Program-made: the position numbers and the translations under genes
The notes under the pieces: model-generated
The model's database searches: none
The model's input: only the letters and a program-made list of their open reading frames with translations
Told to the model about the DNA's origin: nothing
Shown here: piece after piece, positions 7,001-61,699 of the stretch
Numbering within the stretch: position 1 is the first letter of the stretch
How the letters are laid out: the number at the start of each line of letters is the position of its first letter
DNA from: Mustelus asterias
Taxonomy: Eukaryota
DNA length: 64,000 nucleotides
Direction: 5' to 3'
NCBI RefSeq assembly: GCF_964213995.1
Contig: NC_135815.1
Span: 2,418,001-2,482,000 of the forward strand

Positions 7001-7067
7001 GTCAAGCTGTGGGGGTTACTGATAATGTGACATAAATCCAACATCCCGGTTTAGACCGTCCTCATGT

Positions 7068-7607: not shown

Positions 7608-7814
7608 CCCCCACAGCTTGACTCCTGGACTTGCACAATTTCACAAGCTGTACTGTCTGGAGACAATACACATCTCTTAAACCAGCGTTGAATGCTCCCT
7701 CCACCCACATTGTCTGTGCATTTAAGACCTGGCTGGCTGTAGAGATTTGCATTCTAATCAGTATTCTGTAATTTGATTTCTGTGTCTGTGCCCTGTTTGA
7801 GAACAGAGACCACT

Positions 7815-7851
7815 CCATCTGACGAAGGAGCATTGCTCCGAAAGCTTATGG
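7815..7851 (+). ncRNA. Minimal hammerhead ribozyme motif in the Penelope pLTR (identical inverted copy at 6772-6808, - strand)
   Basis: CCAT-CTGACGA-A-GGAGC-ATT-GCTCC-GAA-AGCT-T-ATGG: CUGANGA and GAAA core, 5-bp stem II, palindromic AGCT in place of stem III, CCAT/ATGG stem I. PLE-associated minimal hammerheads are established. Confidence 0.7.
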
Positions 7852-29229: not shown

Positions 29230-29551
29230 CCCACCAGCCCATTCGGGATGACTGCCACATTCCTACACTCTGTACCTGTGTTCTGCCATTTACACATTCC
29301 AGTCTCTGAATGGACACCATTATCACCATTCTCAGCCTTTATCATCACCATTTACATTCCTTTTCCCTATCTGTCTATGCTATTCTTATTTACAGCCCCC
29401 GCCGCCCCCAACAGTCTAAATCCTGTCTGATTTTATTTGTCTTCAGCTCTGACGAAGGGTCATCCAGACTCGAAACATTGGCTCTATTCTCTCTCCACCA
29501 GATGCTGTCAGACCTGCTAATATTTTCTATCGTTTTGTGTTTTTGTTCCAG
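29230..29551 (+). mobile_element. 3' end of a second Penelope-like/retroposon family with a degenerate hammerhead motif (29445-29483), abutting V1
   Basis: AGCT-CTGACGA-A-GGGTC-ATCCA-GACTC-GAA-ACAT-T-GGCT followed by a pyrimidine-rich tail. Confidence 0.6.
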
Positions 29552-29887
29552 TCCTTACCCAGTCTCCGAGTGTGGAACGTGTCACAGAGGGTCAGACTGC
29601 ACGGTTACAGTGCACCATGGGGAACGCTGCAGTGACAGACACTGATGTTTACTGGCACCGGGAGCGACCTGGGAAAGATCGGGAGAGAGTTTTAACACAT
29701 TATACAAGGAATAACATACACCGGAGCCCAGGTTTCACTGAGCGTTTCCAGCCTTCCACAGACACCTCCAATAACAGCTTCATTCTGACAATCACCATGG
29801 TGCAGCCCAGTGACACTGCCGTCTATTACTGCTCAGTGTGGGAAGGAACCTGGGTCTGGGGGAAAGGAAGCCGGCTGAATGTAACCA
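29552..29887 (+). CDS. Ig V-set exon 1 (V1), pre-joined VJ domain
   Basis: LTQSPSVERVTEGQTARLQC...DVYWHRERPG...RFQPSTDTSNNSFILTITMVQPSDTAVYYCSVWEGTWVWGKGSRLNVT: B-strand Cys, C-strand Trp, DxAxYYC and J-type WGxG-x-x-L-x-V. Donor GTGAGT at 29888 (phase 1). Acceptor ttttgttccag ends at 29551. Confidence 0.85.
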
Positions 29888-32800
29888 GTGAGTAAAGTTT
29901 CATTCCAATAATCCACAGCAATAACCTCTTCCAGATGAGTGAGTTGGAGGTGAGTTTGTGATGATGAGGAGCTGGGAGTGATGTCAAGTGATCTTACTGA
30001 TGGATTCACTGTGGGGAAGAAGCTGAGCTCAGGTTCAGCAACTCCCCAAAGTTCCACATCTCGGGCTTCATCCTGACGGGGTGTCTGGGGGGATTAGTGC
30101 CGTGAGGCTGTTCACTAAGCTGCAGAAGAAGCTTTCTCTTCGCCGAACCCTCATGTCGGGCAGGGATCCGGAGGGAGAGGAAAGAGCCTTGGGATGGATG
30201 GAGGAGGTGGAGAGACACAGCTGAGTGACGGTGGAGATGGAGATGTTGAGCAGGTTTCTGAGGGTGAAATGATGAGGAGGAGGAAGCCACGGATGGTGCC
30301 TTGGGGACACAGCAGAGATGATCATTCAGACACTGGGGGAGACACCAGTGGTGCTGATATAATATTAATGATGTGAGCAGCAGGAGGGGCAGTGTGGGAG
30401 AGCGGTGCCAGGAGCTGGAATGTGCATCAGAAACTTTCAAACAGGAATGTGTGCTCAGTGGTGTAGAAAGGAGAGCAGAGGTGAAAGATTCTGAGGAGGG
30501 ATAGACAGTGGACATCACAATCACACAGATATCACTCATCATCTTTATCTGTGAAGTTGTGGTTGGAGTGAATTCTGATTGCAGGGTCAGGAACAGGGAG
30601 TGGGCAGGAGGGGGGTCTCGGGATGTGGTGGTGCAGTGATATTGTCACTGGACTAGTAATCCAGAAACCCAGGGTAATGCTCTGGGGACTTGTGTTCGAA
30701 TCCCACCACGGCAGATGGTGAAGATTGAATTCAGTAAAAATATGGAAGAAAACTTTTAATAGTGACCATGAAACCATCATTAATAGTTGCAAAAACCCAT
30801 CTGATTCATTAATATCCCTCAGGGAAGGAGGTCTGCCGTCCTTACCTGGCCTGGTTCTACATGAGACTTCAGACCCCCAGATTACAGGAGGAAAGGGTCA
30901 GGAGGATGGATGGTCTTTATTGTGGAGACAAAGAAATCCATCTGTTCCTTAGAATTATGATGATACTGTGCCTTTAAGAAATGTATTTGTGTCATGTTTC
31001 TTGTGAGGGGACTATGTTACACTTCAGCTCTGATTACGGTGCCGATTGTCTGCAACTGCCGAAAATGCAGATGAAAAGTTCCTCCGAATTATTGGGGTGT
31101 TTGTTTTACCTGAGTGAATGCATTTTTGCTATTTTTAGGGTTGCCCACTGGGATTTTCAGTTATATAGTTAAACTGTGTTATTAAATAAGGTTTGTTTTG
31201 ATAAAGGCTTCCCAGTGGGTCAATAGAATCACACCTGGAGTGAAACACCTTTAAGAGGTGTAGTTTGATCAAGTTTCTCTGCAGGATGTTTCTCGCATGC
31301 CCTGGAATTTTGTTGGCACCGTGTTGTCTGTGACTGGTGTCCGTTATTGTTGCTGAAGCAGTATAATTGAAGCAATGTTTATTTTCATCTGGACTAAAGC
31401 AGTGTCCTCTGGTTTTAATGTGTGCCCTGGGATTGCTGAGTGGAGCTTGATTGGATAGGATTGACAGCTTCAGTCATGTGACTACAGACAGCTATTTTCC
31501 ACAGAGCAATCGAGTTTTAGTTTTGATTTGAGCTGCTGCCAGAAGCTGATGGGAGCAGGCAGTGTTTCTGTCTCTCTCTCTCTCCTGAGACTTTCTCAAT
31601 GTTCCAAGACTGGACAGCCTCCGAGATTTAATCCAACATTCAAAAGACCAATTCACATCGCTGTTCAAAATCTGCAAATGCAGCATCACATGAGCATACT
31701 TGCTTCAGTGCTAACTTCATCTGAAGCATGGTGTGTGTCTATGGGGTTGCTTTACATTGCATCAACAGAGGGAGCTAACTGTTAAGGATTAAACTGTTTC
31801 ATCTTTAATTCTTGTTAGTGGTAAAAGTTATGCTAATTTTTATTATTATATGTTAACTGTTTTTAAATAACCTTTCTTTGATAAAAGCTTCCAAGTGGGT
31901 CACTTGAATCATACCTGGAGTAAAACACCTTAGACTCACCCTAAAGCCAAAATCAAATGTGAAACTTAGGGTCTGGGCTAACTTCACAGAACACCTTGGA
32001 GTCTCTGGCCTGGGTTTTACCACACTTTATCCTCACACTAATGCCAAAATTAAAAACAGTTCGGGTCCAACTAACTTCATTTGTACCTTGGAGTTTTTGC
32101 GATGATCCCTAACAGAATTGGTGTGTGAAATGAGCGTGGGGGGTGTGGGGAGGTGTGGGGAGGTGGGGGGAGGTGGCAGGGAGGGGGGTGGGTAGGGGGG
32201 TGCAGATGGTTAGTGGTGGAGAGGAGCAGTTTGAATATGTTCCTCGTCTCCAGGTTTAACTGAGAGCCGGAAGAGGATTTGTTTTTGAAAAGGGAACATT
32301 GCAGCATTCTGTGTTTGAGGCACATTTAACCAGAAACATCTGGGCAGGTTACTCACCAACTGTTCCAGCTTCTGCCCTGTGAGACCATGGGGGTGACAGT
32401 GAGCGTGGGGATGGAGAATTATTTGTGATAATTGGGGGAGAATGCTGAAGATAACTGAAACTTTAACCAGGGGATTGGCAGATATTAATATCATTCTTCA
32501 CATAATGGAGTCTCAAATTGGGGAAGTCTTGCTGCAGTTTCACAGTGAATTAGTGGGACTGTAACTGGAGAATGGGTACAGCTTTAGCCCTCCTCCCTAA
32601 GGGGGGATATACTTGTAACAGAGGAAGTTCTGAGAAGGTTCATTACACTGATTCCTGGGATGATGAGTTGTTTGATGAGGAAAGGTTGAGAAGATTGGTC
32701 TGAGACTCAGTGGAGTTTTGAAGAATGAGGTTATCTTATTGGGATGTGTGTGATTCCTGAGGGGACTTGATGGAGTAGATACTGAGAGGGTGTTTCTCCT

Positions 32801-35800
32801 CTTGGAGGAATCTCAAACTAGGCAACGCTGTTTAAATTTAAGGAATTAAGATTGAAATGAGGAGTAATTTCTTCCCTCAGAGTCGTGAACCTTTGGAGTG
32901 CTGATTCCAGACAGCAGTGGGATTTGGGTCATTGAATATATTCAGGGCGGGGCTGCAGGAAGGGATTTCTTCTCCAGGAATCGAGAGTTTGGGGAAGCTG
33001 GCAAGAAAGCTGGGCTTAGTTAACAATCAGACCTCCCATCATTGTCTTGAATCATGGACAGGCTCGAGGGGCCAAATGGCCTCATACTGTTCCCATTTCT
33101 TATGTTCTTTTATGACCATGGGTGCAAGGCCAGTGTCAGGGAGGTTGGATGGTGAGGTGACAGAGTTCAAGTTGCCAGACCTTTGAAGGATATATATGAG
33201 TTAATGAGATGAATAATAGAATGAGGATGTAATGAGAAAGATCCCTGTTTGTGATCAATGTGAAGCAGCAGATATTGGAAAGGTCACACAGTTGCTTCCG
33301 TTATAGTCGGTGTGTGTGTAACATTAATCTACCCTGTCAGTGAGGAAACTGATAGGATTGGGTACAATGTTGTTCACACACCCACTCACCATCCTCGGTT
33401 TTACTTTCTGTTCTATAAGAAGCAATACTGGCTGGGTGTGAAATCTGAATTCCACCTATTCCTGTTTGTTTTCCACCCAAACATTCACATTCCAACTGTC
33501 CCCATTCACCCTTTATTCTCCCCACAGATGCTGCCAAAAACCTCTGCGTATTTCAAGAATTTCCAGAGTCATTTTGTTCAGATTTCCAGAATCGACATTA
33601 TTTTATATTTTATATCCACAGGCCAAGCTGGGATTGGGGAAATGTTTCTGCCACCGTTCAGTGGTTTTGGGAATGGGAATATGGCAGTTACGATGTCCTG
33701 GGAGGAAAGGAATATGATTTTTCCCAATATTACTATGGGATACGGTGAAGCAGGTTTCGGGGGCTGTGTGTGTGTTTGTGTGTGTGCAACTAATTTAATT
33801 GAACTGAAGACAGTTAGACTGAACAGTTTAACTCATCAAAAGGGTTCGGTATAAACGCAAGTTTTTGGAATGGAGATGATCAAAGCTGAGAGAGGATAAG
33901 TACGGGGGCGATTCTCCCATTGCAAACCGCAACTTTTCTGACGGGTCGGGTGGGGAGATGCGCGTGTCGGCCATTTAGCGGGTTCCCCGCAAACATTTAC
34001 GACCCGCGCGCATCTCCCAACTGGACAATAATGGTGCCGCTGGAACCACGCAGAAAACCGGCGGGAAGAGAGATAAGTGATTGAAATCTGATTTTAATGT
34101 ATATATTAAACCAAAGGTGATCCAAGGTGAACTATCAAGATGGGTACAGAACTGGCTTGGCCATAGAAGACAGAGGGTAGCAGTGGAGGGGTCTTTTTCT
34201 GATTGGGGTTCGTGACTAGTGGTGTTCCGTAGGGCTCTGTACTGGGACCTCTGCTGTTTGTGATATATATAAATGATTTGGAAGAAGATGTAGCTGGTGT
34301 GATCAGTAAGTTTGCGGACGACACAAAGATTGCTGGAGTTGCGGATAGTGATGAACATTGTCAGAGAATGCAGCAGGATATAGATAGGCTGGAAAGTTGG
34401 GCGGAGAAATGGCAGATAGAATTTAATCCAGATAAATGCAAAGTGATGCATTTTGATAGATCTAATAGATGGGGGAGCTATACAATAAATGGCAGAACCA
34501 TCAGGAGCATAGACACACAGAGGGATGTGGGTGTGCAAGTCCACAGATCCTTAAAGGTGGCAGCCCCGATAAAAAGGTGGTGAAGAAGGCATATGGCATG
34601 CTTGCCTTTATTGGACAGGGAATAGAGTATAAAAGTTGGCATATGATGTTGCGGTTAGATAGAACGTTGGTTAAGCCACATTTGGAATACTGCGTCCAGT
34701 TCTGGCCGCCACACTACCAGAAGGACGTGGAGGTTTTGGAGAGAGTGCAGAAAAGGTTTACCAGGATGTTGCCTGGTATGGAGGGTATTAGCTATGGGGT
34801 GAGATTGAGTAAACTAGGGTTGTTCTCCCTGGAAAGACGGAGGTTGAGGGGCAACCTAATAGAAGTTGATAAAATTATGAAGGGCATAGGTAGGGTGAAC
34901 AGCTGGAAGCTTTTTCCCAGGTCAGAAATGACAAACACAAGGGGTCACAAGTTCAAGGTGAGGGGGGCAAGGTTCAATACAGATATGCGGGGGACGTATT
35001 TTACACAGAGGGTGGTGGGGGCCTGGAATGCACTACCAAGCAAGGTGGTTGAGGCAGACGCGCTCGGATCATTTAAGACTTATCTAGATAGCCACATGAG
35101 CAGACTGGGAATAGAGGGATACAAACGGATGGTCTAGTTAGGAACACATGATCGGTGCAGGCTTGGAGGGCCGAAGGTCCTGTTCCTGAGCTGTATTGTT
35201 CTTTGTTTCTTTGTTTGTTTCTTTGTATTTTAAATCTAGTTTGCATCTCCCATCCCGCCAGGAGGATGTCATTCGGCGGGGTTTAGAGTAGCTCCCCTTG
35301 TTCGGGGAACCAGTGGGAGACCCCGCCGGAGTGAAGGGGTGGCAATTGGGTCCCCCCCAGGGGTCTGGGCAAAAGGGGGGTGGTGCCCCCTGGGCATGGG
35401 CACGTTGGCACTACCCAGCAGGCATCATGCAATGTCAAGGGGGTGGGGTCCATTGTGGGAGGGGCCAAGGCAGTGACTGGTGGGGTTGGGGGGTTCCACT
35501 GCCACTCTGCATTGAGATTGGTCTGGGCTGGAGGGAGGCCAGCGATTGGGGCGGGCTGAGAGGGGTGGACTGCTCAGGGGGCCCTGCCTCCCTGGGGGGG
35601 GCTGCCTCCTGGGATGGGGGGTCTGACCCCAGGGGGGGGTTTCAGCAGGGGGGTGGGGTCTGCCTCCTGTCAGGAGGTCAGGGGGGAGTCTGCTGGGGTG
35701 AGTGGAGTGGGGGGATCACCACTGCTGTGTACGGGGGGCTGGGCATTGGGGTGCTCCAGGACGGGGTCGGGGGGGGGGGGTGGTAAGGGCTGGCCCAGGA

Positions 35801-38800
35801 ATGGTCCTCGGTGCCGTGATCGGGCCGTGGAGGGGGCTGGAGGGGCAGCACTGTGGGGGTCCCGGGCTGGCCAGTGATCGATCTGGCCAGCAAATGGCGC
35901 ATGCACAGAGTTCCAGAACTGCCAGACCCCGCCGCGAATAGGCCCCGCCTCCGGATTTTTAATAATATTAACAATTGGGACATCTGCATTGCACAGAGTG
36001 CAGAGATTCGGGCCTGAAAAAAGAATCATGATCGAAACCAGTTTTCTCGACAATTCAGCACTTTTGGGAGAATTGCCCTCTTCATTTCTGGGAATGGGAG
36101 TTTTTATTCCTGAGTTCCGGACACATAGTTTCTTGCAATAAAATATAAATTGCAAATGGTTGTAGTAGCTTGATCAATTTTCCCTTTGTGATTTGGTCAG
36201 CCTGGTTATTACCACCTGCCATGTCTTAAATGTGGATGGAAATTTGCATGAGGAGATACGAAGTTTGCTTGTGCTCACATGGGGAATTTCAGAGATAAAT
36301 AACAGGGTATTTACAACTGGCAAAGATCAGAAATGAATAAAACAATGTTATTAAATTTATTCTGATCAAAGGAATAGTGGCCATAAAGACAACACGCACA
36401 AGGCCGCTCTCTGCACACAAAAGGACTATGTTCCAGCTGTGCGCCTTTTTCCAAAATAAATGGGAAATTTGGGAGTCTCTAATTCAGACAACTCTCTCCA
36501 TGGCAACAAGTCAGCCAATCTGAGTTGACTTTCTAACCAATTGTCCTATTTTTCTCCCGTTGAGTAAATTGTGATTGTTTGAAATTTAATATTCTTGTGT
36601 TTTTCCTGATGAGTGTAAAATGAAAAGCTTCAGCAACACGTCTCTCTATTCGATGAGATTCAGGTCCTAAACCACGAAGGGACGGATCATTTATAATTCC
36701 TCACACAAATCGATATGACTTCATTTGAATCACCCAGCCCATTGGTTCAGTCTCAGCATCTCTTTAACAACAAACTTTCCCTTTAAACGTTTTGTAACCT
36801 CCAGACTGGTTTTTAAATTGTTGATATTTTCCTCTTTTTAAAGGTGCGAATGTTCCAGTCCTTACCCAGTCTCCGAGTGTGGAACGTGTCACAGAGGGTC
36901 AGACTGCACGGTTACAGTGCACCATGGGGAACGCTGCAGTGACAGACACTGATGTTCACTGGCACCGGGAGCTACCTGGGAAAGATAGGGAGAGAGTTTT
37001 AACACTGGATACAGGCAATAACATACACCGGAGCCCAGGTTTCACTGAGCGTTTCCAGCCTTCCAGAGACACCTCCAATAACAGCTTCATTCTGACAATC
37101 ACCGTGGTGCAGCCCAGTGACACGGCCGTCTATTACTGCTCAGTGTGGGGAGATATCAGTGGGAACGGGACACAGCTGAATGTAACCAGTAAGTCCAGTT
37201 TACATAACAATCTCCTGAAGTAATCACCACTTGTGACTGTGTGGGAGATGAGTATGTGAGAAATATCACAAACCCCTGTGGTAATGGGAACACATTAGAA
37301 AAATAGACTGGGTGATCTCATGCGCTCTTATTAAAGAATAAAAATTGTGCATCGCTCCTGATTTCTCAGTCTTCAATTCTTTGACATTTTCTCTGTTTCT
37401 CTGTTTCTGTTTGTTTCTAATCTTTCTCCCTCTCCTTTGTTTACTCAGCTTTCTGTCAGCGTGCTGTCTCCAGCTGTTTCTGTTTTATATTCATTCTTGG
37501 TGGGCATTACTGGTTAGGGTCCACCACTAGTTGTCCTTGAGAAGGTGGTGATGAAACAGCCTCTTGAACTGTTGCAGTCCATGTGGTGTAGGTGCATCCA
37601 CAGTGCTGTCAGGATTGGAAATTCCAGGATTCTGACCCAGCGACAGTGAAGGAACAGCGATATATTTCCAAGTCAGGATGGCGAGTGACTCGGCGAGAAG
37701 CCTCCAGGTGGTGGTGTTCCCATGTGCCTGCTGCCCTTGTCCTTTTAGAGTCATAGTCATCGAGTCGTAGAGTCGCAGAGTGCAGAAATGGTTGAGGTTA
37801 TGGGTTAGGAAGGTTCTGTATTTGGAGCCTTGGTGAGTTCCTGCAGTGCATCTTGTAGATGGTACACACGGCTGTCACTGTGTGTCCATGGTGGTGGGAG
37901 TGAATGTTTAATGTGATGGGTGAGGTCCCAATCAAGCACATTGGCTTTGTTCTGGATGGTGTCGAGCTTCTTGAGTGTTGTTGGAGCTGTACTCATCCAG
38001 ACCAGTGGAGAGTATTCCATCACACTGCTGACTTGTGCCTTGCAGGTGGTGGACAGGCTTTGGGGAGTCAGGAGGTGAGTTACCCTCTGCAGGATTCCCA
38101 GCCTCTGACCTGCTCTTGTAGCCATAGCTTTTATATGGCTAGCCCAGTTCAGTTTTTGAACAATTCTAACCCCAGGATGTTGACAGTGGGGATTCAGTGA
38201 TGGAAATGCCATTGAATGTCAAGGGGCGATGGTTAGATCCTGTCTTGTTGGAAATGTTCATTGCCTGACACTAATGTTACCCACCACATATCAGCCCGAG
38301 TCTGAATGTTGTCCAGGTCCTGCTGTGTGCAGGAACAGCCTGCTTCAGCAATGGAGGAGTAATGAATGGTCCAATCATTAATGAACATCCTCACTTCTGA
38401 CCTTATGATGGAAGGAAGGTTATTGATGAAGCAGCTGAAGATGGTTGGGCCTGGGACACTATCCTGAGGAACTCCTGCAGTGATGTCCTGGAGCTAAGAT
38501 AATTGACCTCCACCCATCTTCCTTTGTGCCGGGTATGACTGCAGGTGGAGAGGAAAAGGTGAGGAAAGCAGTGAGAAGAGTGGGATTCGGGAAATTAGGG
38601 GTTTCTGGGAATATGATGTCATACATGAGAAATGAGCAGGGAACCAGTGGAGGCTGGGATCAGGGAGGAGGAATGGGTGAGGTTTCGAGCTTGGCACACT
38701 GCTGGGTGCCAGGAATAGTGAGAGTCATAGGGATGAGGAACGTATGTTAGCCGAGGCAACAATGTCCACATCTTGGGAAAGACAATGCTTCAGGTTGGGA

Positions 38801-41800
38801 TCCGTAGAAGGAGCACAGCCAAATTGCCTCTTTAGAGTTGGGAACCACGTGTCAGGCCATTTCATCTCAAAAAACAACTGTCTGGCTATCTGTTCAATAT
38901 GTTACTGTTGGTAGAGTTGCCAGATGCCCTTGTTATGAATCTTGGTTGAGTTCCAGATTGACTATGGACCGAGTCAATGAGATAATGTTAACATAGTTTG
39001 AAGCAAAGTGCTCCTAGTTATTTGACTGACATTTCTAAGGTTGCGAGAAGTTTCTTTCTTTGTGGTTTTTCAATGCCTGTTTGTTTATTTGAACACAGTT
39101 AAGAGATGTTAAAAGGCTTAAAACTTTACCCACTGATGCTACGAGTGGCAATGGTTATTTGACACTTTGCCTCTTGCTCACTGTATCAATTTCAGAAACA
39201 TTTCAATGAATTCCCAGCTGTGCTCATGGCATATGGCTTCTATACATAGTGGATACTTGGAGAGTAGGTGTGGAGCATGCATGGGAAAATGGAAAGGGCA
39301 TGAGGTTGCAGTAAGCAAGGAAGGATATGATGAGTCATGGAGGAGGCCTGAGGGTTATCAGGAAGGGCGGGATCTTAGAGTGAAGTTCCACAATTGGCAG
39401 AATGTAACAGGACAGGTCGATATGGTGGGATAAGTTTGAAATTCCCTGTGTCTATTTTTACCAATTCCCAACAATCCCGGAAGGGGAAAATCCAGGCCAG
39501 ATTGATAGGATGGGGTAAAGAAGAGGATTAGCAGCAGTAAATCAGTCCGTGTGCGGTCACGCTGCAATTATTATACAGGAAATTTCAAACTTTATACCTT
39601 TACTTTCGCCTTTCATTCATCTTTTTAAACAATAATTTGAGTTCTTCCAATAATCAGCTGTGAAGATTGTGAAGTTTATCTAGTCGATAGTTTGTTTTCT
39701 GTGGGTGGGAATGTGCACTGAATGGATAATATCAGCAAATTCTAGAACATTCAGCAGATGCCCTTTTGTCACATCATTCCCTCCCTCGCTGCAAACAACA
39801 ATTTCCATGTTGGAAGAATGAGAAAATTGGGGTGGCACGATGGCCCAATGATTAGCATTGCTGCCTCACAGAGCCATGGACATGGGGTCGATTCCCAGCT
39901 TGGGTCACTGTCTGTGTGGAGCCTGCACGTTCTCCCCGTTTCTGCGTGGGTTTCCTCCAGGTGCTCCGGTTTCCTCCTACAGTCTGAAAGATGTGCCGGT
40001 TAGGGTGCATTGACCCGAACAGGCACCGAAGTGTGGCAACGAGGGGATTTTCACAGTAACTTCACTGCAGTGTTAATGTGAGCCTACTTGTGACTAATAA
40101 ATACATTTTACTTTAGAATACTCTGCAGATCATTATTGTAACCAGAAGAAGATTTCTAAAATGTTGCATTTCAAGTTCTATGATTTTTCTTTCTCAATAT
40201 TAACAGCTCCATTGTCTGACCCAGTCCTCATGCAGTATCCAACAGTCAGCAAGGTGCCAGAGGGTCAGGCTGTCGACTTACAATGTGCCATGTACAATGC
40301 CAGTGTGATTGACACTGATGTCCACTGGCATTACCAGCGAGCTGGCTACCGCAGTGAGTGGCTGATCAGCCAGTTTGTGAATGGCACCATTACCAAGTCC
40401 CGGGATTCCCACCACCGTTTTCAGCCTTCCCGGAATGTCAGCAGCAACAGCTACATTCTGACCATTGTGAATGTGACCCTCAATGATACAGCTGTGTACA
40501 GATGCAGTGTGTGGAGCTACATTCATGGAGCAGGGACCCAGCTCAATGTCACTGGTAAGTCAATGCTGAGTGACTGGCGTGTGCATGGAATGGAAGGGAG
40601 CATACAGAATGGCAGAGTGCTCATCCAGGCCTTCGTTCCAAAGATTGAATTAGGTTGGACTGGTTAGGAAGTCAGGCCTGGAGGGACCTAAGTGAGAAAC
40701 TGAATCACAGAATTGCAGAGAAGACCATTCGTCCCATCATGTTTTCACCCTCGCTCTGAATGCTCAACTCGCCGAGTGCCATTCCCCTGCAACCCTGAAC
40801 ATTTCTCCACTTTTGATAACAGTCTAATTCCCTTTTGAATGCTTCAATTGAACCGGTCTCCACCACACTCTCAGACAGTGCATTCCAGATCCTAACCACT
40901 CGCTGTGTGAATCTGTCTCCACCACACTCTCAGACAGTGCATTCCAGATCCTAACCACTCGCTGTGTGAATCTGTCTCCACCACACTCTCAGACAGTGCA
41001 TTCCAGACCCTAACCAGTCGCTGTGTGAACCTGTCTCCACCACACTCTCAGACAGTGCAATCCAGATCCTAACCACTCGCTGTGTGAATCTGTCTCCACC
41101 ACACTCTCAGACAGTGCATTCCAGACCCTAACCAGTCGCTGTGTGAATCTGTCTCCACCACACTCTCAGACAGTGCATTCCAGATCCTAACCACTCGCTG
41201 TGTGAATCTGTCTCCACCACACTCTCAGACAGTGCATTCCAGATCCTAACCACTCGCTGTGTGAATCTGTCTCCACCACACTCTCAGACAGTGCATTCCA
41301 GATCCTAACCACTCGCTGTGTGAATCTGTCTCCACCACACTCTCAGACAGTGCATTCCAGATCCTAACCACTCGCTGTGTGAATCTGTCTCCACCACACT
41401 CTCAGACAGTGCATTCCAGATCCTAACCACTTGGTGTGTGAATCTGTCTCCACCACACTCTCAGACAGTGCATTCCAGATCCTAACCACTCGTTGTGTGA
41501 ATCTGTCTCCACCACACTCTCAGACAGTGCATTCCAGATCCTAACCACTCGCTGTGTGAATCTGTCTCCACCACACTCTCAGACAGTGCATTCCAGATCC
41601 TAACCACTCGCTGTGTGAATCTGTCTCCACCACACTCTCAGACAGTGCATTCCAGATCCTAACCACTTGGTGTGTGAATCTGTCTCCACCACACTCTCAG
41701 ACAGTGCATTCCAGATCCTAACCACTCGCTGTGTGAATCTGTCTCCACCACACTCTCAGACAGTGCATTCCAGATTCTAACCACTCGCTGTGTGAATCTG

Positions 41801-44800
41801 TCTCCACCACACTCTCAGACAGTGCATTCCAGATCCTAACCACTCGTTGTGTGAATCTGTCTCCACCACACTCTCAGACAGTGCATTCCAGATCCTAACC
41901 ACTCGCTGTGTGAATCTGTCTCCACCACACTCTCAGACAGTGCATTCCAGATCCTAACATCTCGCTGTGTGAAAAAGTTTTTTCTTCATTTCTCTTTGGT
42001 AAATTACTTTATTTTGATGCCCTGTGGTTCTCGATCCTTTCACAATGGGAACAGTTTCTCCTGATCTACTCTGTCAGACCTCCAATGTTTTTGAATACGT
42101 GTCAAATTTCCTCTCAGCCTTCTCTCCTCCATGGAAATCAGTCCTAATTTCTACAATACTTCTCCAAAGGCCAGGATACTGTGTGCTTTATTAACTGCTC
42201 TCTCCACCTGTCCTGTCAGCTTCAATGAATTATGCATACACACACTCAACTGTCTCTGTTTCTGCACCCCCTTTAGATTTGTAACCCCTATTTACATTGT
42301 CTCTTTATGTTCTTCCCACCGACATGTATCTCCTCACATTTCTCTGTGTTGAACTTTATCTGCCACCTGTCTGCCCACTCCAACATTTTGTCTCTGTCCT
42401 TTTGAATTTCCAAACGATATTCCTCACAGTTTCCAATACTCTCAAGTTTCAGATCACCCACAAATGTTGAAATTGTGTTCTGTACACTAAGGTCTCGGTC
42501 ATTCATGTATCTCAGGAAAAGCAAGATCCCAGCACTCAGCCCTGGGGAACTCCACTACAAATGATGGGCTGATCTTGGGCTTGAACTCCATTCGCTGCCT
42601 GCTCACCATGTCTCTGAATTCCCCGACAGAGCAACATCTCTGTATTCCAGCCTTAAATGTATTTAACAATGGAGCATCCACATCCCTCTGGGTGCAGCAC
42701 TGGAGAGATGGTTGCTGAGTTTGTGAGGTTTGGTGAGTGTGGACAGGCAGAGAAAGCGGATCATTCCTCATCCTCCCAACTTCACACAAACAAGCGTTTG
42801 GAAGCTCTGGGATTGTTTTGAATGTTCTGTGATTCTTTGGTATTGGTGCAAACTGCTACTGGATCACGGGTCTCTGCTCTGCTAAATGACTGATCTCTGG
42901 GATTGTTTCAGATCCATAAAAAAAGGCAACAATGTTAGAGGAAGAAGCCATTATGTTGCACTGGCCTTTCATTCCAGGCTGTTAACTTGCCACGTATCAA
43001 AGGGACATGTTTACCCGAATGTGCTCAGCAGAAACTGACAGAAACAGGTTCTGTCTGATTTTATTTCCATTCAGGTCGATGTACATTACTCAAACTGAAG
43101 CTGTAGTGTGTGTAACATTCTGATATTTTACAGAAGAATCATCCTCCAATAATCCCTGGACTTCAGATCCCGTTGTGTTCAGCCTGGCTATCATTCTGCC
43201 CTTGGTTGTCTTGTTCTGCATTGCTCTGCTCACAGGTTATCTTGTAAAAAAGAGGTTCTGTTCAGCAAAGAACTCCACACCAAGGTAAATACGATTCATC
43301 TTGTGTCTGCTGCTGTAACTGGACAGGGGCACTATTTTATAACTTGCTGCTTTTAGTGAGGAGTAACTTTTCCCTTGTCGCGTACAGTTCATGCGGAGTG
43401 ACCTGCTACTGATGAGAGCCACACATGTCCAGATGCTCAACTGGTGCCAGTCATCTCCAACTGTCACGGCATCACACTTACTCCAGCACTGACCAACAGG
43501 CACCTAACCTGCTGCTGAGAGTCAGGAAGGTTTTAACAGTTAAAGTACGAAACATCACCCTCAGGATATAAGTGCTGGATAATTCCCCACCTAGCCCACC
43601 GAATGAACTAGATCAGAGCGCTGGTTTCATGCCTGTGTCTCGCTAGCTGCACAGTCCCTCATGATGCTCAGACCAAGTGAGAACAGTTAGAATGGACACT
43701 CTGTGTAAGCAGCCTACTTCAGCCATTACCCTCCCCACAAGGAAACAATCCAATCATATTTACCCACCCTGTTCCCACATCTCTTCAGTTTCCTTTTCCA
43801 TCACCTCCCCCTCGAATCTAATCTCAATGCTGACATTATTTCTGCCTCACCCTCCCTTACGTGGCCAGGAGTTCCAACCTATCTGGAAGAGACTGAGACA
43901 CAGGTTCTGTCCCGTTGTCCCCAATCCAAACTCCCTGTGTGTCCTCTCGCTGCTCCCCGGGCTTTGGGATACAGGAAGCAAGAAGCAAAATGATTGGTTT
44001 ATTGATATCGAGACACAACAGTTTTATGAACTTACCCAGGTGTGGAAATCAGAATCAAGGATCATCATTCCCTCTGGGAGACCAAGGGTTAATCGCTCAC
44101 GACTCTGAACTTGTCCCTGACGAGAAATCATTGCAAAATGAGAAGTTTCTCAAACAATTCTTTCACTTCCTCAATCTGGAACAATAATAAGTTGCATGAT
44201 CCTGATCAAGCTTCCCAGCATGCTTTCTGATTTTGGTCAAATTCTTTGCCTTATTGTTGGAGCAAGTTCTGTCTATTTAGGAAATGATTCAGTTGATCTT
44301 GCTCATCCGTGAAATCTTCCATAAAAAACTAATATGGGAAATCCATGTTGTAAAATCTAAACTGCATCTCCACCCAGAGTGTGAATATTACAGCGCTGTT
44401 CTGTGGTAAAGTCGCAATTAAGCTAATGTGTGGCATTTCTTTAGGGTTCCTGATGGAGACCAGAACCCTGTGTACGCAACAGTGGATAGTAAGTAAACTC
44501 ATTCAATCATTATTGCAAAGTTTGGCAGGAATTACTCTCAATCCCAGATGTCCCTTTGATGCTGATAGTTTTGTGATGTAATTAACTTGAGAATAATTTG
44601 ACCAATTCATTGTCTGATTGACAGAATTTACTGTTAAAGGTTGTAAATCTACATCCTACAGAATGAAGATGGCAGGAGGCTGCCCCCAGCCTTGTAGCTG
44701 CACTGTGAAACACCCCCTCAGTGTGGCAATGCTGCAGCCAGTGGTCCCAAAGAGATAGAAACTTCCAGAAAGCCCAAGGAACCAGCTTGTAGTGATCACG

Positions 44801-46555
44801 CCTTTGTAGATCGAGCACATTGTCCGTTCCCAGAGGGATTCCTCGGGATAGAGAAGGTTCAGATCTGACCCAGTAAAGAGTTTAAAGATAGTGAGGTTTT
44901 GATGGAGAGAAAACCTATTCCCTCTGGCGAACGGATCAATAACCAGTGATCATCGAATTCAAATCACTGGGTAAAGATCTAGAGGGCAGATGGGGAGAAA
45001 TGAGAGTTGTTGGGATGTGGAATACTCGAGCTGGAAATGTGCTGGAAGCTGATTCCAGAAATAATCGGAAAAGAGAGTTGGACAAGTGCTGGAGGATGAG
45101 GAATTTCATGGATTGTGGATAAAAAGCAGAAATGTGGGATGAAGCACAATGACCTAGTACAGGCCGAATGGGGCGAATGGCCTCCTCCTGTTGTGTGAGA
45201 TTCTGATTTGGATGATGAGGTTTCGAAGACAGTGCAGCTGATGGAGAATAATCCACACGTCCCCCATTAGCTTCACTCTGAGAAAACTGCCCAAGGTGAC
45301 ACTGGGATTTTTCATTCGCTCTCATTCAAAGTTTAAAAAGCTCCATCTTTCTGTGGATCTATTCAGAAGTAACATCGTTGTGTTTCCTTTCAGATAAAAC
45401 CCAGAGCAGCAATCAAGAAGCAGCTTCTTCTGCCTTGGTAAGGAAATGCCGTACAGCTGTTGTGTTGCACAACACCAAGTTATTGAGAATGTCGTTAGTT
45501 CCCTTTCTGTAACTAACAGGTCCCGTCCCTTGTAACATCAGCAATTACTGTGGAAGAGCAGCTTTCCAACTGCACTGAGTCAACTCTCTGCCTCACCCAA
45601 CACAGAAATATTCTGGAGTTTACTGTACAGAACCAGTTACACAATATGTATGAAGTTTATATAAAATGTGCAATTCGGACAGAATTAGAAGCGTTTTGCA
45701 GCTAAAACCTAAACAATAGCAGTAGGAGTCGGCCATTCAGCCCATTGAACCTGCTGTCCCATTCGATACAATCATGGCTGATCACCCACCTCAATTCCAA
45801 CTTCCTTCACTATCTCCATATTCTTTAATTCATTTATTATCCCAAGTATTCCTGTTTAGGTTCCTGTAAGAAGCTGCAACACACAAATAGGCCTTGGATC
45901 GGGGAGATGGAATCCGTTGATTCCAGTTGGGAGAGAGAGCGGCTTGTCTCAACTGGCTTTGGATTTTTTACAATCTGTTTACAGGACATGGGCGTCGCTG
46001 GCTCGACCCAGCATTTATTGCCCATCCCTAATAGCCCCTTGAGAAGGTGATGGTGAGCTGCCTTCTGGATCCGCTGCAGTCCCTGTGGTGTAGGTGCTTG
46101 AGCTGTAAAAGATCCCGGGGCACTATTTGGAAGGTTGGCAGAGGAGTTGTCCTTTAATGTCTCGGTGGTATTTATCCCTTGATCAACATTATCACAGCCC
46201 ATAATCAGGTCACTGTCACATTTCTCTTTATGGGATCTTGTTTTGTACAAATTAGCAGCTATCGCAGTGTGACCAGTGTCAATAAAAAGCACATCCCAGC
46301 AGCTCGTCAGTACCTTCCAGAGAGAGAAAGAAACCATTCAGTTAAAAATAACTCCATTCGATCTGTTCACAGAGACATTCCTTTGTTGCGTTTGGACGAT
46401 GTTCAGTGATGAATGTTTCTATTGGATTCCAGGCCGGTGAAGGGGAATGTAGTTACGCCGAGCTTCGATTCCATGGTCAAGGCAGCATCCAGCTGAGAGT
46501 AACAGTTGCTGAGAGTCCCACAGAGTACTCTGCTGTGAAGCGCACTCAAAACTGA
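29552..46555 (+). CDS. Spliced gene model, 5'-partial (leader exon not found): tandem VJ-type IgSF inhibitory receptor, V1-V2-V3-TM-cytoplasmic tail with ITIM-like and ITSM motifs, about 463 aa without leader. Exons 29552-29887, 36844-37188, 40207-40554, 43134-43284, 44445-44488, 45394-45437, 46433-46555
   Basis: All junctions are GT-AG with pyrimidine tracts. Intron phases chain correctly (1,1,1,2,1,0) into one open frame ending in TGA at 46553-46555. Domain order is that of a type I receptor. Inclusion of V1 in the same transcript is inferred from phase only. Confidence 0.8.
30618..30878 (+). mobile_element. tRNA-derived Deu-type SINE (SacSINE-like); related copies at about 56970-57275 and 59386-59720
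   Basis: B box GTTCGAATCCC, then conserved core gggaaggaaatctgccgtccttacc(t/c)ggtctggcctac shared by the three copies. Confidence 0.65.
30957..32100 (+). mobile_element. LTR-like repeat (family of 27-1606) with internally duplicated 3' part
   Basis: Starts ...gatgatactgtgcctttaagaaatgt; contains gaatca(c/t)acctggagt twice. Confidence 0.55.
33905..36078. mobile_element. Non-autonomous DNA transposon (possibly PIF/Harbinger-like), GC-rich interior, hosting a CR1
   Basis: Terminal inverted repeats GGGCGATTCTCCCA / TGGGAGAATTGCCC. Confidence 0.55.
34110..35225 (+). mobile_element. 5'-truncated CR1 (frameshifted RT C-terminal half)
   Basis: ORFs 34260-34583 (FADD) and 34469-35137; (GTTTCTTT)n-like tail. 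Confidence 0.85.
36844..37188 (+). CDS. Ig V-set exon 2 (V2), pre-joined VJ domain
   Basis: Acceptor cctctttttaaag|GT GCG AAT GTT CCA; ANVPVLTQSPS...LQC...DVHW...DTAVYYCSVWGDISGNGTQLNVT; donor GTAAGT at 37189; phase 1-1. Confidence 0.92.
37495..38545 (-). mobile_element. Degraded LINE (CR1/L2 group) 3' fragment in the V2-V3 intron
   Basis: LNWASHIKAMATRAGQRLGIL...KAQVSSVMEYSPLVW resembles a non-LTR RT C-terminus. Confidence 0.65.
39829..40115 (+). mobile_element. HE1-like V-SINE
   Basis: tRNA-like head (GGTCGATTCCC) plus V-domain core tgtgtggag..tgcacgttctccccg...gggtttcctcc.ggtgctccggtttcctcc.acagtc; AATAAA/TTTA tail. Confidence 0.8.
40207..40554 (+). CDS. Ig V-set exon 3 (V3), membrane-proximal, rich in N-glycosylation sequons
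   Basis: Acceptor tttctttctcaatattaacag|CT; PLSDPVLMQYP...LQCAMYNASVIDTDVHW...DTAVYRCSVWSYIHGAGTQLNVT; donor GTAAGT at 40555; phase 1-1. Confidence 0.92.
40855..41972. repeat. 59-bp minisatellite, about 19 copies, derived from the CR1 3' coding end
   Basis: Unit TCTGTCTCCACCACACTCTCAGACAGTGCATTCCAGATCCTAACCACTCGCTGTGTGAA; the - strand reads FTQRVVRIWNALSESVVET; embedded in a degraded - strand CR1 (about 40703-42560). Confidence 0.95.
43134..43284 (+). CDS. Stalk/transmembrane exon
   Basis: Acceptor tgatattttacag|AA; EESSSNNPWTSDP-VVFSLAIILPLVVLFCIALLTGYLV-KKRFCSAKNSTP(R): 25-residue hydrophobic stretch followed by basic KKR; donor AG|GTAAAT (phase 2). Not in the ORF track. Confidence 0.88.
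44445..44488 (+). CDS. Cytoplasmic exon 1 (VPDGDQNPVYATVD)
   Basis: Acceptor catttctttag|G completes the phase-2 Arg codon; donor GTAAGT at 44489 (phase 1); carries a tyrosine motif. Confidence 0.8.
45394..45437 (+). CDS. Cytoplasmic exon 2 (NKTQSSNQEAASSAL)
   Basis: Acceptor gtttcctttcag|AT, donor TTG|GTAAGG; converts phase 1 to phase 0, as required to join the flanking exons. Confidence 0.75.
46433..46555 (+). CDS. Terminal cytoplasmic exon with ITIM-like (CSYAEL) and ITSM (TEYSAV) motifs
   Basis: Acceptor gtttctattggattccag|GCC (phase 0); AGEGECSYAELRFHGQGSIQLRVTVAESPTEYSAVKRTQN*; aligns without gaps to the - strand exon at 60684-60803. Confidence 0.85.
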   Translation, partial: AGEGECSYAELRFHGQGSIQLRVTVAESPTEYSAVKRTQN

Positions 46556-49696: not shown

Positions 49697-50600
49697 TTAG
49701 AAAAGAAATATTCACACTCCAGAATAAAAATACATTGGATACATTTATTCTCATTTCTGGGGATTTTTTTGGACAATTTGATGTTAAAACCTTAATTTTG
49801 TCGTGGGAGATATATGCTGATAATTATTTTGGAGAGAAACTGTTTTGTATGATTGGCTAAGTTTGATTTTCAATTTATATATTAGTCTCGGCTGGTCAGC
49901 AGTAGGGGTTGTATTTAGAAATCATTGCCAGTAATTTCCAATTATTTCTCTCACAAATTTTAAAGTCTGTTCCTCCATCTTCAACCAACCAATCAACAGG
50001 ATATGGTCATGACAGCAGGGGCCTGACCCTGGCACTGCCCGTTGGCAGGGTTTTAGATGAGGGGTGAGTGTGAAAAAGGACAAAGGGGCTTCCTGTCGTG
50101 TTCCGACCCACTCCCACCTCGGGAGCAGAAGAGGCCTCAGACAGGCCACTCAGTCTTTCACAATTGAGGCCCTGAAACAGCCAATTACTGACCACTTAGC
50201 GGCCATTTCACACCCAGCTTCAATTTCATAGGCTGGTGCAGGGATTTCCCACCAATGGGGGAAGCCACAAAATAATCACATTTAGGCCTGGAGCAGGGTG
50301 TGTGTTGGGGAGGGGGGGGGGGGGGGGGGTGCAGGGTGGAGAGGGAGGGGGAGGGAGGCAGGGTGGAGAGGGAGCAAAGGAGTCTGGGAAGGGTTTTTAT
50401 TTTAACTTTAAAAGTCAGTTACCTGGGTGGTTCCCCCTCAGTAGTAGTTTTTTTTTTTTCTCTCGGGCCCCTAGCCCTATAAATTGGTGCAGAGGAGATA
50501 CCCGATCCTCTACACTGGTAGAGGATCCCACCCTTCCATCCTCCTCTAACCTAATTATAAGTGTGGGGAAGTTTTTTGTTTTCTTTTTTTCTTGCTGGTA

Positions 50601-51530
50601 ATGGCTTCAGGGATGGCAGTTCAGGCAGTATGCTGCATCTCCTGTGGGATGTATGTGGTGAGGAAATCCAGTAGTGTTTCAGGAGATTTTAGTTGTAAGA
50701 AGTGCATTAGATTGCAGCTTCTGGAGGAGCGTGTAAAGGAGCTGGAGGGGGAGGTAGAGGAACTCCGCATAATTCGGGAGGCGGAGGTGGAAGTTGATAG
50801 GAGTTATAGAGAAATAGTAACTCCTAGAAATGAGGCTTGGGTCAATGCCAGGAGGAGGGGTAAGAAGCAATCGGGAAGACAATCCCCTGGGGCGGTTCCC
50901 CTCCATAATAGGTTTTCGGTGCTGGAGGCTACAGTTGAGGAGGAATCAACTGAGCATAGAGAGCAGATCTCTGGGGGTGAGCCGAGTGAGAAAGCTCAGG
51001 TGGTTAGGGGCTGTAAAAGACTGGGCCTTGTGATTGGGGACTCCACAATTAAGGGGACAGATAGGAGGGTCGGAACTAAAGGTAGGGACTCAGGGTTGGT
51101 GTGTTGCCTACCAGGGGCTGGGGTCCGGGATGTGTCTGACAGGGTATTCAGGACTCTTAGGGGGGAGGGAGATAAACCACAAGTTATTGTACATGTGGGG
51201 ACACACGACATAGGGAGGATAGGGGAAGGGGATATTAGGCAGGGATTTATGGAGTTGGGGTGGAAACTAAAGGCCAAGACTGACAGAGTGGTTATCTCTG
51301 GACTCTTGCCTGTACCACGGGATAGTTTAGAGAGGAATAGGGAGAGGGAAGGTTTGAATTCATGGCTGAGGGGATGGTGCAGGAGGGAGGGGTTCAGGTA
51401 CTTAAGCAATTGGGGCTCGTACTGGGGAAGGTGTGACCTCTATGAGAAGGATGGTCTACACCTTAATCAGAAGGGGACCAATATCCTGGGGGGTAAATTT
51501 GCTAAGGCCATGCAGGGAGGTTTAAACTGA
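50601..51530 (+). CDS. CR1 ORF1p (CxxC..CxxC zinc finger, coiled coil, SGNH esterase-like domain)
   Basis: CCISCGMY...FSCKKC; LEERVKELEGEVEEL; VIGDS, VHVGTHD, DGLHLN; first ATG at 50601. Confidence 0.9.
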   Translation: MASGMAVQAVCCISCGMYVVRKSSSVSGDFSCKKCIRLQLLEERVKELEGEVEELRIIREAEVEVDRSYREIVTPRNEAWVNARRRGKKQSGRQSPGAVPLHNRFSVLEATVEEESTEHREQISGGEPSEKAQVVRGCKRLGLVIGDSTIKGTDRRVGTKGRDSGLVCCLPGAGVRDVSDRVFRTLRGEGDKPQVIVHVGTHDIGRIGEGDIRQGFMELGWKLKAKTDRVVISGLLPVPRDSLERNREREGLNSWLRGWCRREGFRYLSNWGSYWGRCDLYEKDGLHLNQKGTNILGGKFAKAMQGGLN

Positions 51531-51580
51531 TTCGGGGGGGGGGAGGGATCCTGAGTAGTGGGGCTGAAAGTGAGGGATGC

Positions 51581-54400: not shown

Positions 54401-54496
54401 GTTGGAGGGTCACAGTTTTTTTTTAACTGGTCGGTGCAACATCGTGGGCCGAAGGGCCTGTTCTGCGCTGTAATGTTCTATGTTCTATGTTCTATG

Positions 54497-56466: not shown

Positions 56467-56852
56467 TGCTCTATCAGAAGTCAACTTCAACTTTGGTTTT
56501 CCCCGCCAACTTCAGGTCCGGTGGCTGCTGGAACACCCTGCACTGGCCCATCTCCCAGCCCCTGCCAACCCACAGCCTTTCACTCAACAGGCCAATCCTC
56601 CAACATTCATTCCCCCCAAGCCTTCCCCTCTTCTCCGTATCCCCAAATGGACACAGGACACGTGCTCCCTCAGTCCTGGGGAGAAGATGTTTCACACAAC
56701 ATGGTGGGAGGAACATGCCCAGTGCACAATCCTTACCCACCATATTGGAGCCTTGATACCAGCTTCTGCAACTCAAAGGGAAGCCACACCTCCCAGTCTT
56801 CCCTGGATTCCCTGGATTCCACCCGGAATCCTGAACCCTGCCTTGTCTATCC

Positions 56853-60683: not shown

Positions 60684-60803
60684 TCACTGGGAATGGTTGA
60701 TGGCAGCATACACAGTCGCCTCCTCAGTGTCCAAAGGCATTGACGTTCTGCTTTTCTGATGGAGGAACTGGAGATCGGCGTAAAACAATTCTCCCTCGTC
60801 TAT
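60684..60803 (-). CDS. Terminal ITIM+ITSM exon of a second, convergently oriented paralogous receptor gene (rest lies mostly beyond the window)
   Basis: Acceptor ctctctgtctcgtttcag|ATA (phase 0); IDEGELFYADLQFLHQKSRTSMPLDTEEATVYAAINHSQ*; canonical ITIM LFYADL and ITSM TVYAAI, with Tyr at exon positions 8 and 32 as in 46433-46555. Confidence 0.82.
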   Translation of the reverse strand: MDEGELFYADLQFLHQKSRTSMPLDTEEATVYAAINHSQ

Positions 60804-61586: not shown

Positions 61587-61699
61587 GAGCCCACGCTTAG
61601 CAAGGTCATGCACCACCCTGCTCCCCAATTGGTCCCCTTGGTCATGTGAACCTCACTGTGCAGAATAATCCTTAAAGGGACAATCACCACATCCATGTA

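What the first reader, a model, noticed from the sequence alone, without database searches (positions are those of the whole stretch)
29544..37188. V1 and V2 are about 96% identical up to YYCSVW, then switch to different CDR3/J ends, as if one V were joined to two Js
Seen: by manual alignment, 11 nucleotide differences in about 299 bp (29544-29842 vs 36851-37149). Identity breaks right after TGCTCAGTGTGGG, where a V gene segment ends in rearranging loci: EGTWVWGKGSRL vs GDISGNGTQL (2 aa shorter). Flanking introns share no visible similarity. Inference: exon-restricted gene conversion or unequal exchange homogenises the framework but spares the FG loop. Alternatively these are fossils of independent germline V-J joins, which are established for shark Ig genes.
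Basis: partly seen in the sequence, partly recalled or inferred. Interest (0 to 1): 0.7.

Follow-up and report, generated by a model that had tools for sequence, protein, structure and literature searches.

The report
Shark receptor built from antibody-like exons
The two look-alike exons are successive domains of one non-rearranging shark surface receptor with a predicted inhibitory tail; they are likely old duplicates whose shared frame was overwritten by gene conversion while each kept its own tip loop, and the whole undescribed family likely descends from a germline-joined antibody light-chain exon.

Summary
Observation confirmed: 11 differences in 299 nt, then a break. V1, V2 and a third V exon belong to one gene, V-V-V-TM-tail with an ITSM and two ITIM-like motifs. 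The family spans sharks, rays and chimaera. V2 carries the near-invariant type B end; V1 is a B' domain. Among 11 B/B' exons of this genome the frames are intermixed (no fixed difference in 300 nt) and all 9 fixed differences lie just after YYCSVW. So V1 and V2 are likely old paralogues homogenised by repeated gene conversion that stops at the FG loop. 'One V, two Js' fails: no unjoined relative, no C1, no junctional variety in B. The bigger lead: the family's V domains group with Ig light chain sigma-2 V (99/96 and 90/93 in two trees; AU tests mixed), suggesting one ancient germline-joined VJ exon co-opted as an innate receptor, a case Lee et al. 2000 predicted without an example.

The parts
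29424..29551 (.). Fragment of a very high-copy dispersed repeat that abuts V1, replaces the family's usual acceptor and supplies an in-phase AG (use inferred from the RefSeq model)
   Evidence: Other copies in the cluster flanks at 75-81%; contig depth 10^4-10^6 here against 10-500 on the exon; shared by L007, L009, L011; model P0013 splices here
29552..29887 (+). V1 exon: single-exon VJ-type V-set domain, type B' (B-like frame, WGKGSRL end), membrane-distal
   Evidence: Pfam V-set E 4e-21; residues 18-130 of P0013; boundaries; model pLDDT 96, V fold
29544..29842 (+). Homogenised tract of V1, 96% identical to V2; 9 codons differ, 8 change the residue, mostly in the C strand to CDR2 region
29843..29873 (+). 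B'-specific FG loop and start of G strand, with a late 6-nt insertion found in 2 of 6 B' copies
29888..29961 (+). Intron start homologous to the intron behind V2 (about 69%)
36844..37188 (+). V2 exon: type B domain with the conserved WGDISGNG end
37189..37259 (+). Intron start homologous to the intron behind V1
40207..40554 (+). V3 exon: type C domain, 99% identical to C exons of the neighbouring gene although the introns do not align
   Evidence: contigs of three runs guessed as RNA cover exactly 40207-40553/4 and continue with other letters
43134..43284 (+). Transmembrane exon
44445..44488 (+). Cytoplasmic exon 1 with ITIM-like PVYATV
45394..45437 (+). Cytoplasmic exon 2
46433..46555 (+). 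Last exon with ITIM-like CSYAEL and ITSM-consensus TEYSAV
   Evidence: contigs of two runs guessed as RNA begin at 46432-46433
60684..60803 (-). Last (ITIM-bearing) exon of the neighbouring family member (A-B-C-C-TM), tail to tail; its other exons lie beyond the window

Best explanation
V1 and V2 are consecutive single-exon V domains of one non-rearranging V-V-V-transmembrane receptor with a predicted inhibitory tail; they are likely old paralogues (types B' and B) whose frame up to YYCSVW was made alike by repeated gene conversion or unequal exchange, while the FG loop, G strand and intron behind kept the old divergence. Shown: gene structure, mosaic pattern, breakpoint position, intron homology, B frames of this genome nesting together regardless of tail. 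Inferred: conversion as the mechanism; tracts likely stop at the loop because selection keeps the two loop types apart (B invariant, B' variable and membrane-distal, so likely the ligand-facing module) and because the diverged loop ends homology. Inferred, moderate: the ancestral domain of the family was a germline-joined Ig light chain sigma-2 VJ exon.
For: Gene model identical to P0013 maps exon by exon. 11 B/B' exons in the genome: frame distances B-B 4.1%, B-B' 4.5%, B'-B' 4.2%, no fixed difference in 300 nt; tail B-B' 31%, all 9 fixed differences in 22 nt after SVWG. Max-chi breakpoints +1 to +11 nt in 30 of 30 B-B' pairs, p 0.005 each (pairs not independent); 6 of 13 informative frame sites are four-gamete incompatible with tail type and 26 of 78 site pairs are incompatible, which a single crossover does not give without homoplasy. 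V1-V2 synonymous distance 4% against about 30% in tail and intron. Frame tree: all 11 exons of this genome form one clade (0.97) inside B, while catshark, carpet-shark and lamnid B' lie outside; B'-to-own-B frame identity is 0.91 here against 0.62-0.68 in 8 other species labels. V1 keeps catshark-B'-type residues at positions 35, 40, 52, 54 and 107; a catshark domain shows the reciprocal mosaic (B'-like frame, B end). C exons differ at 3 of 334 nt with unalignable introns; same-type B exons are identical through the tail.
Against: The 40-nt tail alone is equally far from A, B and D ends (9-12 of 40 for three B' copies; 12-14 for L008) and the B' donor heptamer equals that of A exons, so B' paralogy rests on one 67-column intron alignment and on protein comparison. 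No DNA of other species' exons was available, so tracts cannot be dated or given a direction. The six B' copies share one recent tail ancestor (introns 96-99% alike in five), so the 30 breakpoints are few events. Homoplasy under selection can mimic four-gamete incompatibility. GENECONV and RDP were not run; only own max-chi and four-gamete tests. Ligand binding and signalling are untested.
Confidence: 0.8

Rival explanations
1. V1's end comes from a type A (or D) exon: a B frame replaced the frame of the distal A exon, leaving an A-type G strand and donor.
For: B' and A share the donor heptamer and Arg107; tail distance to A (10-12 of 40) equals that to B (11 of 40); V1 sits at the distal position that A holds in most genes.
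Against: The intron behind V1 aligns with B introns (z 7-10) and with none of three A introns at z>3; catshark B' domains with a B-like frame and similar end exist beside intact A domains.
Confidence: 0.08
2. V1 is a recent duplicate of a B exon whose FG loop alone diverged fast under positive selection; no conversion is needed.
For: 8 of 9 changed frame codons are non-synonymous; B' loops are variable across species; the cluster duplicates often.
Against: The non-coding intron behind the loop is also about 30% diverged, which selection on the loop cannot cause; V1 carries B'-type residues seen in catsharks.
Confidence: 0.06
3. V1 and V2 are fossils of two independent RAG-made germline joins of one V to two J segments.
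For: The break lies near where a V segment ends; the ends carry GxG J motifs; germline joins are established for shark Ig (PMC2193156); the nearest relative in the genome is an RSS-bearing light chain V.
Against: All 11 close copies are joined and none is followed by an RSS; the nearest split V is only 47% identical, whereas recent joins have split relatives up to 99% identical; the B end is near-invariant in 108 domains from 23 species labels and similar in chimaera; 0 of 107 family proteins have a C1 motif; G strand, donor and intron are homologous behind both ends.
Confidence: 0.03
4. V1 is an assembly chimera of V2 reads and another exon end.
For: The window's gene has a 99% identical copy 124 kb upstream, which could be an uncollapsed haplotype; no listed contig of run X3 spans V1's variants and its tail.
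Against: Six B' copies with distinct variants, on both strands and up to 0.9 Mb apart; contigs of other organisms join a B frame to the B' end (X9 record 31; X5 record 23 covers end plus intron; X16).
Confidence: 0.02

Closest known systems
RefSeq-modelled chondrichthyan multi-V receptors (P0013 and 106 further proteins), automatically named IgSF3-like, pIgR-like, SIRP-alpha-like etc.
   Same: P0013 is this gene; same A, B, B', C domain types, TM and tyrosine motifs.
   Different: Names are automatic and inconsistent; no paper on the family was found in 9 searches.
Ig light chain sigma-2 (type I, NS5, sigma-cart) V domain (PMC5985310 passages)
   Same: Closest relative of the V domains: 46-48% protein and 76% DNA over 114 nt to the single RSS-bearing locus on C23, reciprocal best in the genome; one clade in two trees. 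Sigma-2 is V-J joined in gar, turtles and coelacanth and type I in skates.
   Different: No C1, no RSS, several V domains in tandem, shorter FG loop, transmembrane segment and tyrosine motifs.
Novel immune-type receptors (NITR) of ray-finned fish (bioRxiv 10.1101/2021.06.11.448072 passages)
   Same: Germline-encoded VJ-type V domain, ITIM-type tails, clustered lineage-specific expansion: it likely works like an NITR.
   Different: No six-cysteine I domain; all ectodomains are V; the paper notes no NITR evidence in cartilaginous fish; two teleost NITR-like rows (my label) did not group with the family.
UrIg and UrIg2 (PMC12227049)
   Same: Non-rearranging single-exon VJ genes of elasmobranchs; UrIg2 repeats are described as homogenised by gene conversion.
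   Different: UrIg genes are VJ plus C1 domains and root the antigen-receptor tree; this family has V domains only, a tyrosine-motif tail, and groups inside light chain V. UrIg sequences were not in my trees.
Merohomogenization of paired leukocyte receptors (PMC3210942, abstract only)
   Same: Conversion limited to part of a receptor gene; concerted evolution after speciation.
   Different: There the ligand-binding part is homogenised between opposing receptors; here the frame is homogenised between domains of the same chain and the FG loop is spared.

Membership tests
Germline-joined shark Ig gene (recent RAG join) | Closely related split V with heptamer/nonamer RSS | tested here: not met
   11 of 11 close copies joined; nearest split V 47% identical; RSS-like hits in 464 kb of the cluster lie away from exon ends
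Germline-joined shark Ig gene (recent RAG join) | VJ followed by a C1 exon | tested here: not met
   V3, TM and tail follow; 0 of 107 proteins with a C1 motif
Germline-joined shark Ig gene (recent RAG join) | Junctional variety (P/N bases, trimming) | tested here: not met
   B end near-invariant in 108 domains; the only length variant is a 6-nt insertion in 2 of 6 B' copies
NITR | V domain with joined J motif | tested here: met
   GxG motif in all types; V1 has WGKG
NITR | I domain with six conserved cysteines | tested here: not met
   All three ectodomains are two-cysteine V-set; criterion
NITR | ITIM/itim tail or charged TM residue | tested here: met
   58 of 86 TM-bearing proteins have an ITIM consensus, 32 an ITSM consensus; this gene has one ITSM and two ITIM-like motifs
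NITR | Conserved synteny with the NITR cluster | not tested
   Only two neighbours found (an alpha-4/alpha-2-type nicotinic receptor exon and a TRIM exon); NITR synteny not compared
UrIg/UrIg2 | One VJ followed by three or more C1 domains | tested here: not met
SIRP | VJ domain followed by C1 domains (definition recalled, not from a call) | tested here: not met
   No C1 motif
Descendant of Ig light chain sigma-2 VJ | V domains group with sigma-2 V to the exclusion of other antigen-receptor V | tested here: met
   99/96 and 90/93 with a mixture model; reciprocal best match in the genome
Descendant of Ig light chain sigma-2 VJ | Nested inside sigma-2, alternatives rejected | tested here: inconclusive
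   Nested at 96/87 and 83/87; AU p 0.11 (family outside all rearranging V), 0.26 (sister only), 0.029 (all 40 light chain rows without family), 0.117 (same without two teleost rows)
Inhibitory receptor | Tyrosine phosphorylation and SHP-1/2 recruitment | not testable with these tools
   Motifs only

The most novel reading that the evidence does not exclude
Cartilaginous fishes own a multigene innate receptor family that was born more than 400 million years ago when a germline-joined Ig light chain sigma-2 VJ exon was fused to a transmembrane and ITIM/ITSM module and multiplied in tandem: adaptive-to-innate co-option, the direct example that Lee et al. 2000 said was missing. It now diversifies without RAG by swapping frames under fixed FG loops, with the swap point at the old V-J junction.
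Probability: 0.5. Interest if true: 0.8.

Novelty: new variant of a known kind. Interest (0 to 1): 0.6.

Why it matters
Single-exon VJ genes are hunted as relics of the gene that RAG invaded (PMC12227049). This family would show the reverse route: a rejoined antibody exon recycled into a germline inhibitory receptor, which warns that a joined VJ need not be a pre-RAG relic and gives sharks a candidate NITR-like system that the papers read say is unknown there. The V1/V2 switch itself is ordinary concerted evolution, but it marks the FG loop as the part under type-specific selection and so points to the likely binding or pairing surface.

Tried and rejected
Search for unjoined relatives: protein and DNA searches of the own genome and an RSS scan of 464 kb of cluster DNA found none; only the best 150 of about 1,300 candidates were scored in the protein searches, and C15 1.69-2.27 Mb was not fetched. 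UrIg identity rejected (no C1). NKp30, PRARP, CD28-family identity: named in papers as joined-VJ genes but no sequence of them appeared among the best hits that were named; not tested directly. cDNA-templated conversion considered and rejected: identity runs 13-58 nt into introns for several exon pairs. Expression: no RNA holder listed; contigs of runs guessed as RNA fit V3 and the last exon at their boundaries but none showed use of V1's repeat-derived acceptor, so that stays open. Synteny: 120 of 324 candidate frames in 170 kb of flank scanned, 2 informative hits; not enough to place the cluster. Atlas search with P0046 returned the family's own cluster and generic V-set clusters. PDB sequence and fold searches gave antibodies, TCR and VpreB at 28-37% identity, no family member. 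Dropped rows: 7 domains with ambiguous ends; 4 divergent catshark B rows; 33 of 101 rows in the mixture tree; tree group labels other than those named are my own motif-based labels, and four rows first labelled sigma proved to be caecilian and turtle chains that I treat as sigma-2 following. Ohta 2019 and Flajnik 2023 (J Immunol) were not held and may mention the family; the elephant shark genome paper's main text and its one held supplement file had no relevant ITIM, NITR or SIRP mention.

Full report
Observation. The two stretches differ at 11 of 299 nt and the ungapped identity ends after the YYCSVW codons. With a 6-nt gap the ends align again: the last 16 nt to the donor GT are identical and similarity runs on about 70 nt into the intron. 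That intron match is 46 of 67 columns, z 8.6, reached by 0 of 300 shuffles, and it is found with B-type introns only, not with A, C or D introns. The upstream flanks are unrelated because a very high-copy repeat abuts V1 and supplies an in-phase AG.

The gene. A third V exon lies at 40207-40554. All three are Pfam V-set. A RefSeq protein named for Mustelus asterias (P0013) maps exon by exon: V1, V2, V3, transmembrane exon, three tail exons; the leader exon lies about 3 kb before the window. The tail has one ITSM consensus and two ITIM-like motifs. The V1 model is a confident V fold whose best structural matches are TCR, lambda and VpreB domains at about 30% identity. Contigs from runs guessed to be RNA of other organisms fit V3 and the last exon at their splice boundaries; no run is on record as RNA.

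The family. The genome holds 19 related V exons on C15 between 1.55 and 2.56 Mb, in about seven genes or remnants on both strands. 107 longer proteins from sharks and rays match V2; five chimaera proteins were named among more distant hits. 86 of 107 have a TM segment, 58 of those an ITIM consensus, none of 107 a C1 motif. Domains fall into types A, B, C and B'. The B end (WGDISGNG) is nearly fixed in 108 domains from 23 species labels; B' domains have a B-like frame, sit toward the N terminus and have variable ends. V2 is B, V1 is B'.

The mosaic. Among the 11 B and B' exons of this genome the 300-nt frames are intermixed (B-B 4.1%, B-B' 4.5%, B'-B' 4.2%; no fixed difference) while the 40-nt ends differ by 31% between types, all 9 fixed differences lying in 22 nt after SVWG. 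Max-chi breakpoints fall 1-11 nt after the SVW codons in 30 of 30 B-B' pairs; among 25 within-type pairs only the four with L010 were significant, elsewhere. The pairs are not independent. Synonymous distance in the frame is 3-4%, against about 30% in end and intron. In a frame tree all 11 exons form one clade inside B, next to catshark B, whereas B' of other sharks lie outside; B'-to-own-B identity is 0.91 here and 0.62-0.68 in eight other species labels. V1 still carries catshark-B'-type residues at positions 35, 40, 52 and 54 inside a B frame, most exons of both types carry B'-type residues at 53 and 57, and one catshark domain has the reciprocal mosaic. 26 of 78 informative site pairs fail the four-gamete test. 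C exons of different genes differ at 3 of 334 nt with unalignable introns, and same-type B exons are identical through the end. I infer repeated exon-scale gene conversion across the cluster; between B and B' the tracts stop at the FG loop, likely through selection on two loop types plus loss of homology. Against: the end alone is equidistant from A, B and D ends and shares its donor with A, and no outgroup DNA was at hand.

Why not two V-J joins. Lee et al. 2000 (PMC2193156; abstract and most of the Discussion read) define recent germline joins by split relatives up to 99% identical and RAG-type junctions. Here all 11 close copies are joined, no RSS lies at an exon end, no C1 follows, and the B end has no junctional variety. 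An assembly chimera is unlikely: six distinct B' copies exist and contigs of other organisms join a B frame to the B' end.

Deeper origin. The nearest non-family sequence in the genome is a single light chain locus on C23 with V, 12-spacer RSS, a damaged J and a C1 exon: 46-48% identical, reciprocal best, 76% in DNA over 114 nt. Its relatives are shark and ray light chains named; I call them type I/sigma-2 from recall of the sequences and the isotype table of PMC5985310 (passages). In a 101-row tree the family (98/96) sits within a clade with these chains and with coelacanth, caecilian and turtle chains (99/96); with a mixture model on 68 rows the clade has 90/93 and nesting 83/87. Only about 100 columns are available, and AU tests reject one of four alternatives (p 0.11, 0.26, 0.029, 0.117). 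Sigma-2 is V-J joined in gar, turtles and coelacanth and type I in skates, so a joined donor exon is plausible. Lee et al. proposed that a rejoined Ig gene could become a new receptor and wrote that no direct example existed. I rate this origin at about 0.5; a relic of a never-split exon is not excluded.

Comparison and novelty. It likely works like an NITR (passages of bioRxiv 10.1101/2021.06.11.448072) but lacks the I domain; it is not UrIg (PMC12227049: abstract, introduction, results and most of the discussion read). Partial homogenisation of receptor genes is known (PMC3210942, abstract; UrIg2 repeats). Nine literature searches found no description of the family; PMC11599192, PMC10751288, PMC6795676 and PMC3964593 were seen as passages only; two J Immunol papers were not held. 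Earlier notes of this scan list several other little-studied shark paired-receptor clusters (unchecked), so an undescribed family alone is not rare. Verdict: real feature, conversion reading supported, two-join reading rejected; interest 0.6, carried mainly by the possible light chain origin.

Noticed in passing
window 29424-29551: A high-copy repeat has replaced the normal acceptor of V1 at a short shared word and donates an in-phase AG, shortening the exon by 3 codons; shared by three B' copies.
   Followed up: partly
G000:C15:2293951-2338250 versus window 411-43965: The window's gene has a 99% identical copy 124 kb upstream that holds one extra B' exon (L006) and seems to lack leader and last exons in my scan; true duplication or uncollapsed haplotype.
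   Followed up: partly
L008 (G000:C15:2553354-2553689): B' loop flanked on both sides by B-type sequence, with a GC donor, downstream of a frameshifted A exon: possible short loop-only conversion tract.
   Followed up: partly
L010 (G000:C15:1550243-1553524, minus): B domain that reads on without a donor into a 1,139-codon open frame of mucin-like repeats; keeps the ancestral CDR2 inside a homogenised frame; similar proteins in other elasmobranchs (P0105).
   Followed up: partly
G000:C23:1596300-1598310 (L017, L071): Single type I/sigma-2-like light chain locus with V-RSS, a J that looks frameshifted and a C exon; may be a pseudogene in this genome.
   Followed up: partly
G000:C373:211000-217238 (L020, L075): A joined VJ exon plus one C1 exon that groups with sigma-2 and this family in both trees; isotype not established.
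   Followed up: partly
G000:C13:60.08-61.31 Mb (L027, L073, L074): Cluster of about a dozen joined lambda-like VJ exons with C1 exons, as expected for shark Ig lambda.
   Followed up: no
G000:C15:2503203-2505366: Tandem repeat upstream of an A exon with 15 heptamer/nonamer-like matches (13 or 22 spacer); probably chance within a satellite.
   Followed up: no
window 6712-7911: 375-nt inverted repeats at 98% around an open frame that looks like a GIY-YIG endonuclease remnant (Penelope-like; label recalled).
   Followed up: no
window 50550-54397: Near-intact LINE with two long open frames (326 and 964 codons), with 99.7% identical pieces elsewhere in the cluster: recent activity.
   Followed up: no
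window 40849-41973, 54451-56500, 61676-62764: 59-nt, 27-nt G-rich and 27-nt minisatellites.
   Followed up: no
L080:7494-8618 and L088:5024-5842: Cluster neighbours: an alpha-4/alpha-2-type nicotinic receptor exon at about 2.60 Mb and a TRIM RING/B-box exon at about 1.465 Mb.
   Followed up: partly
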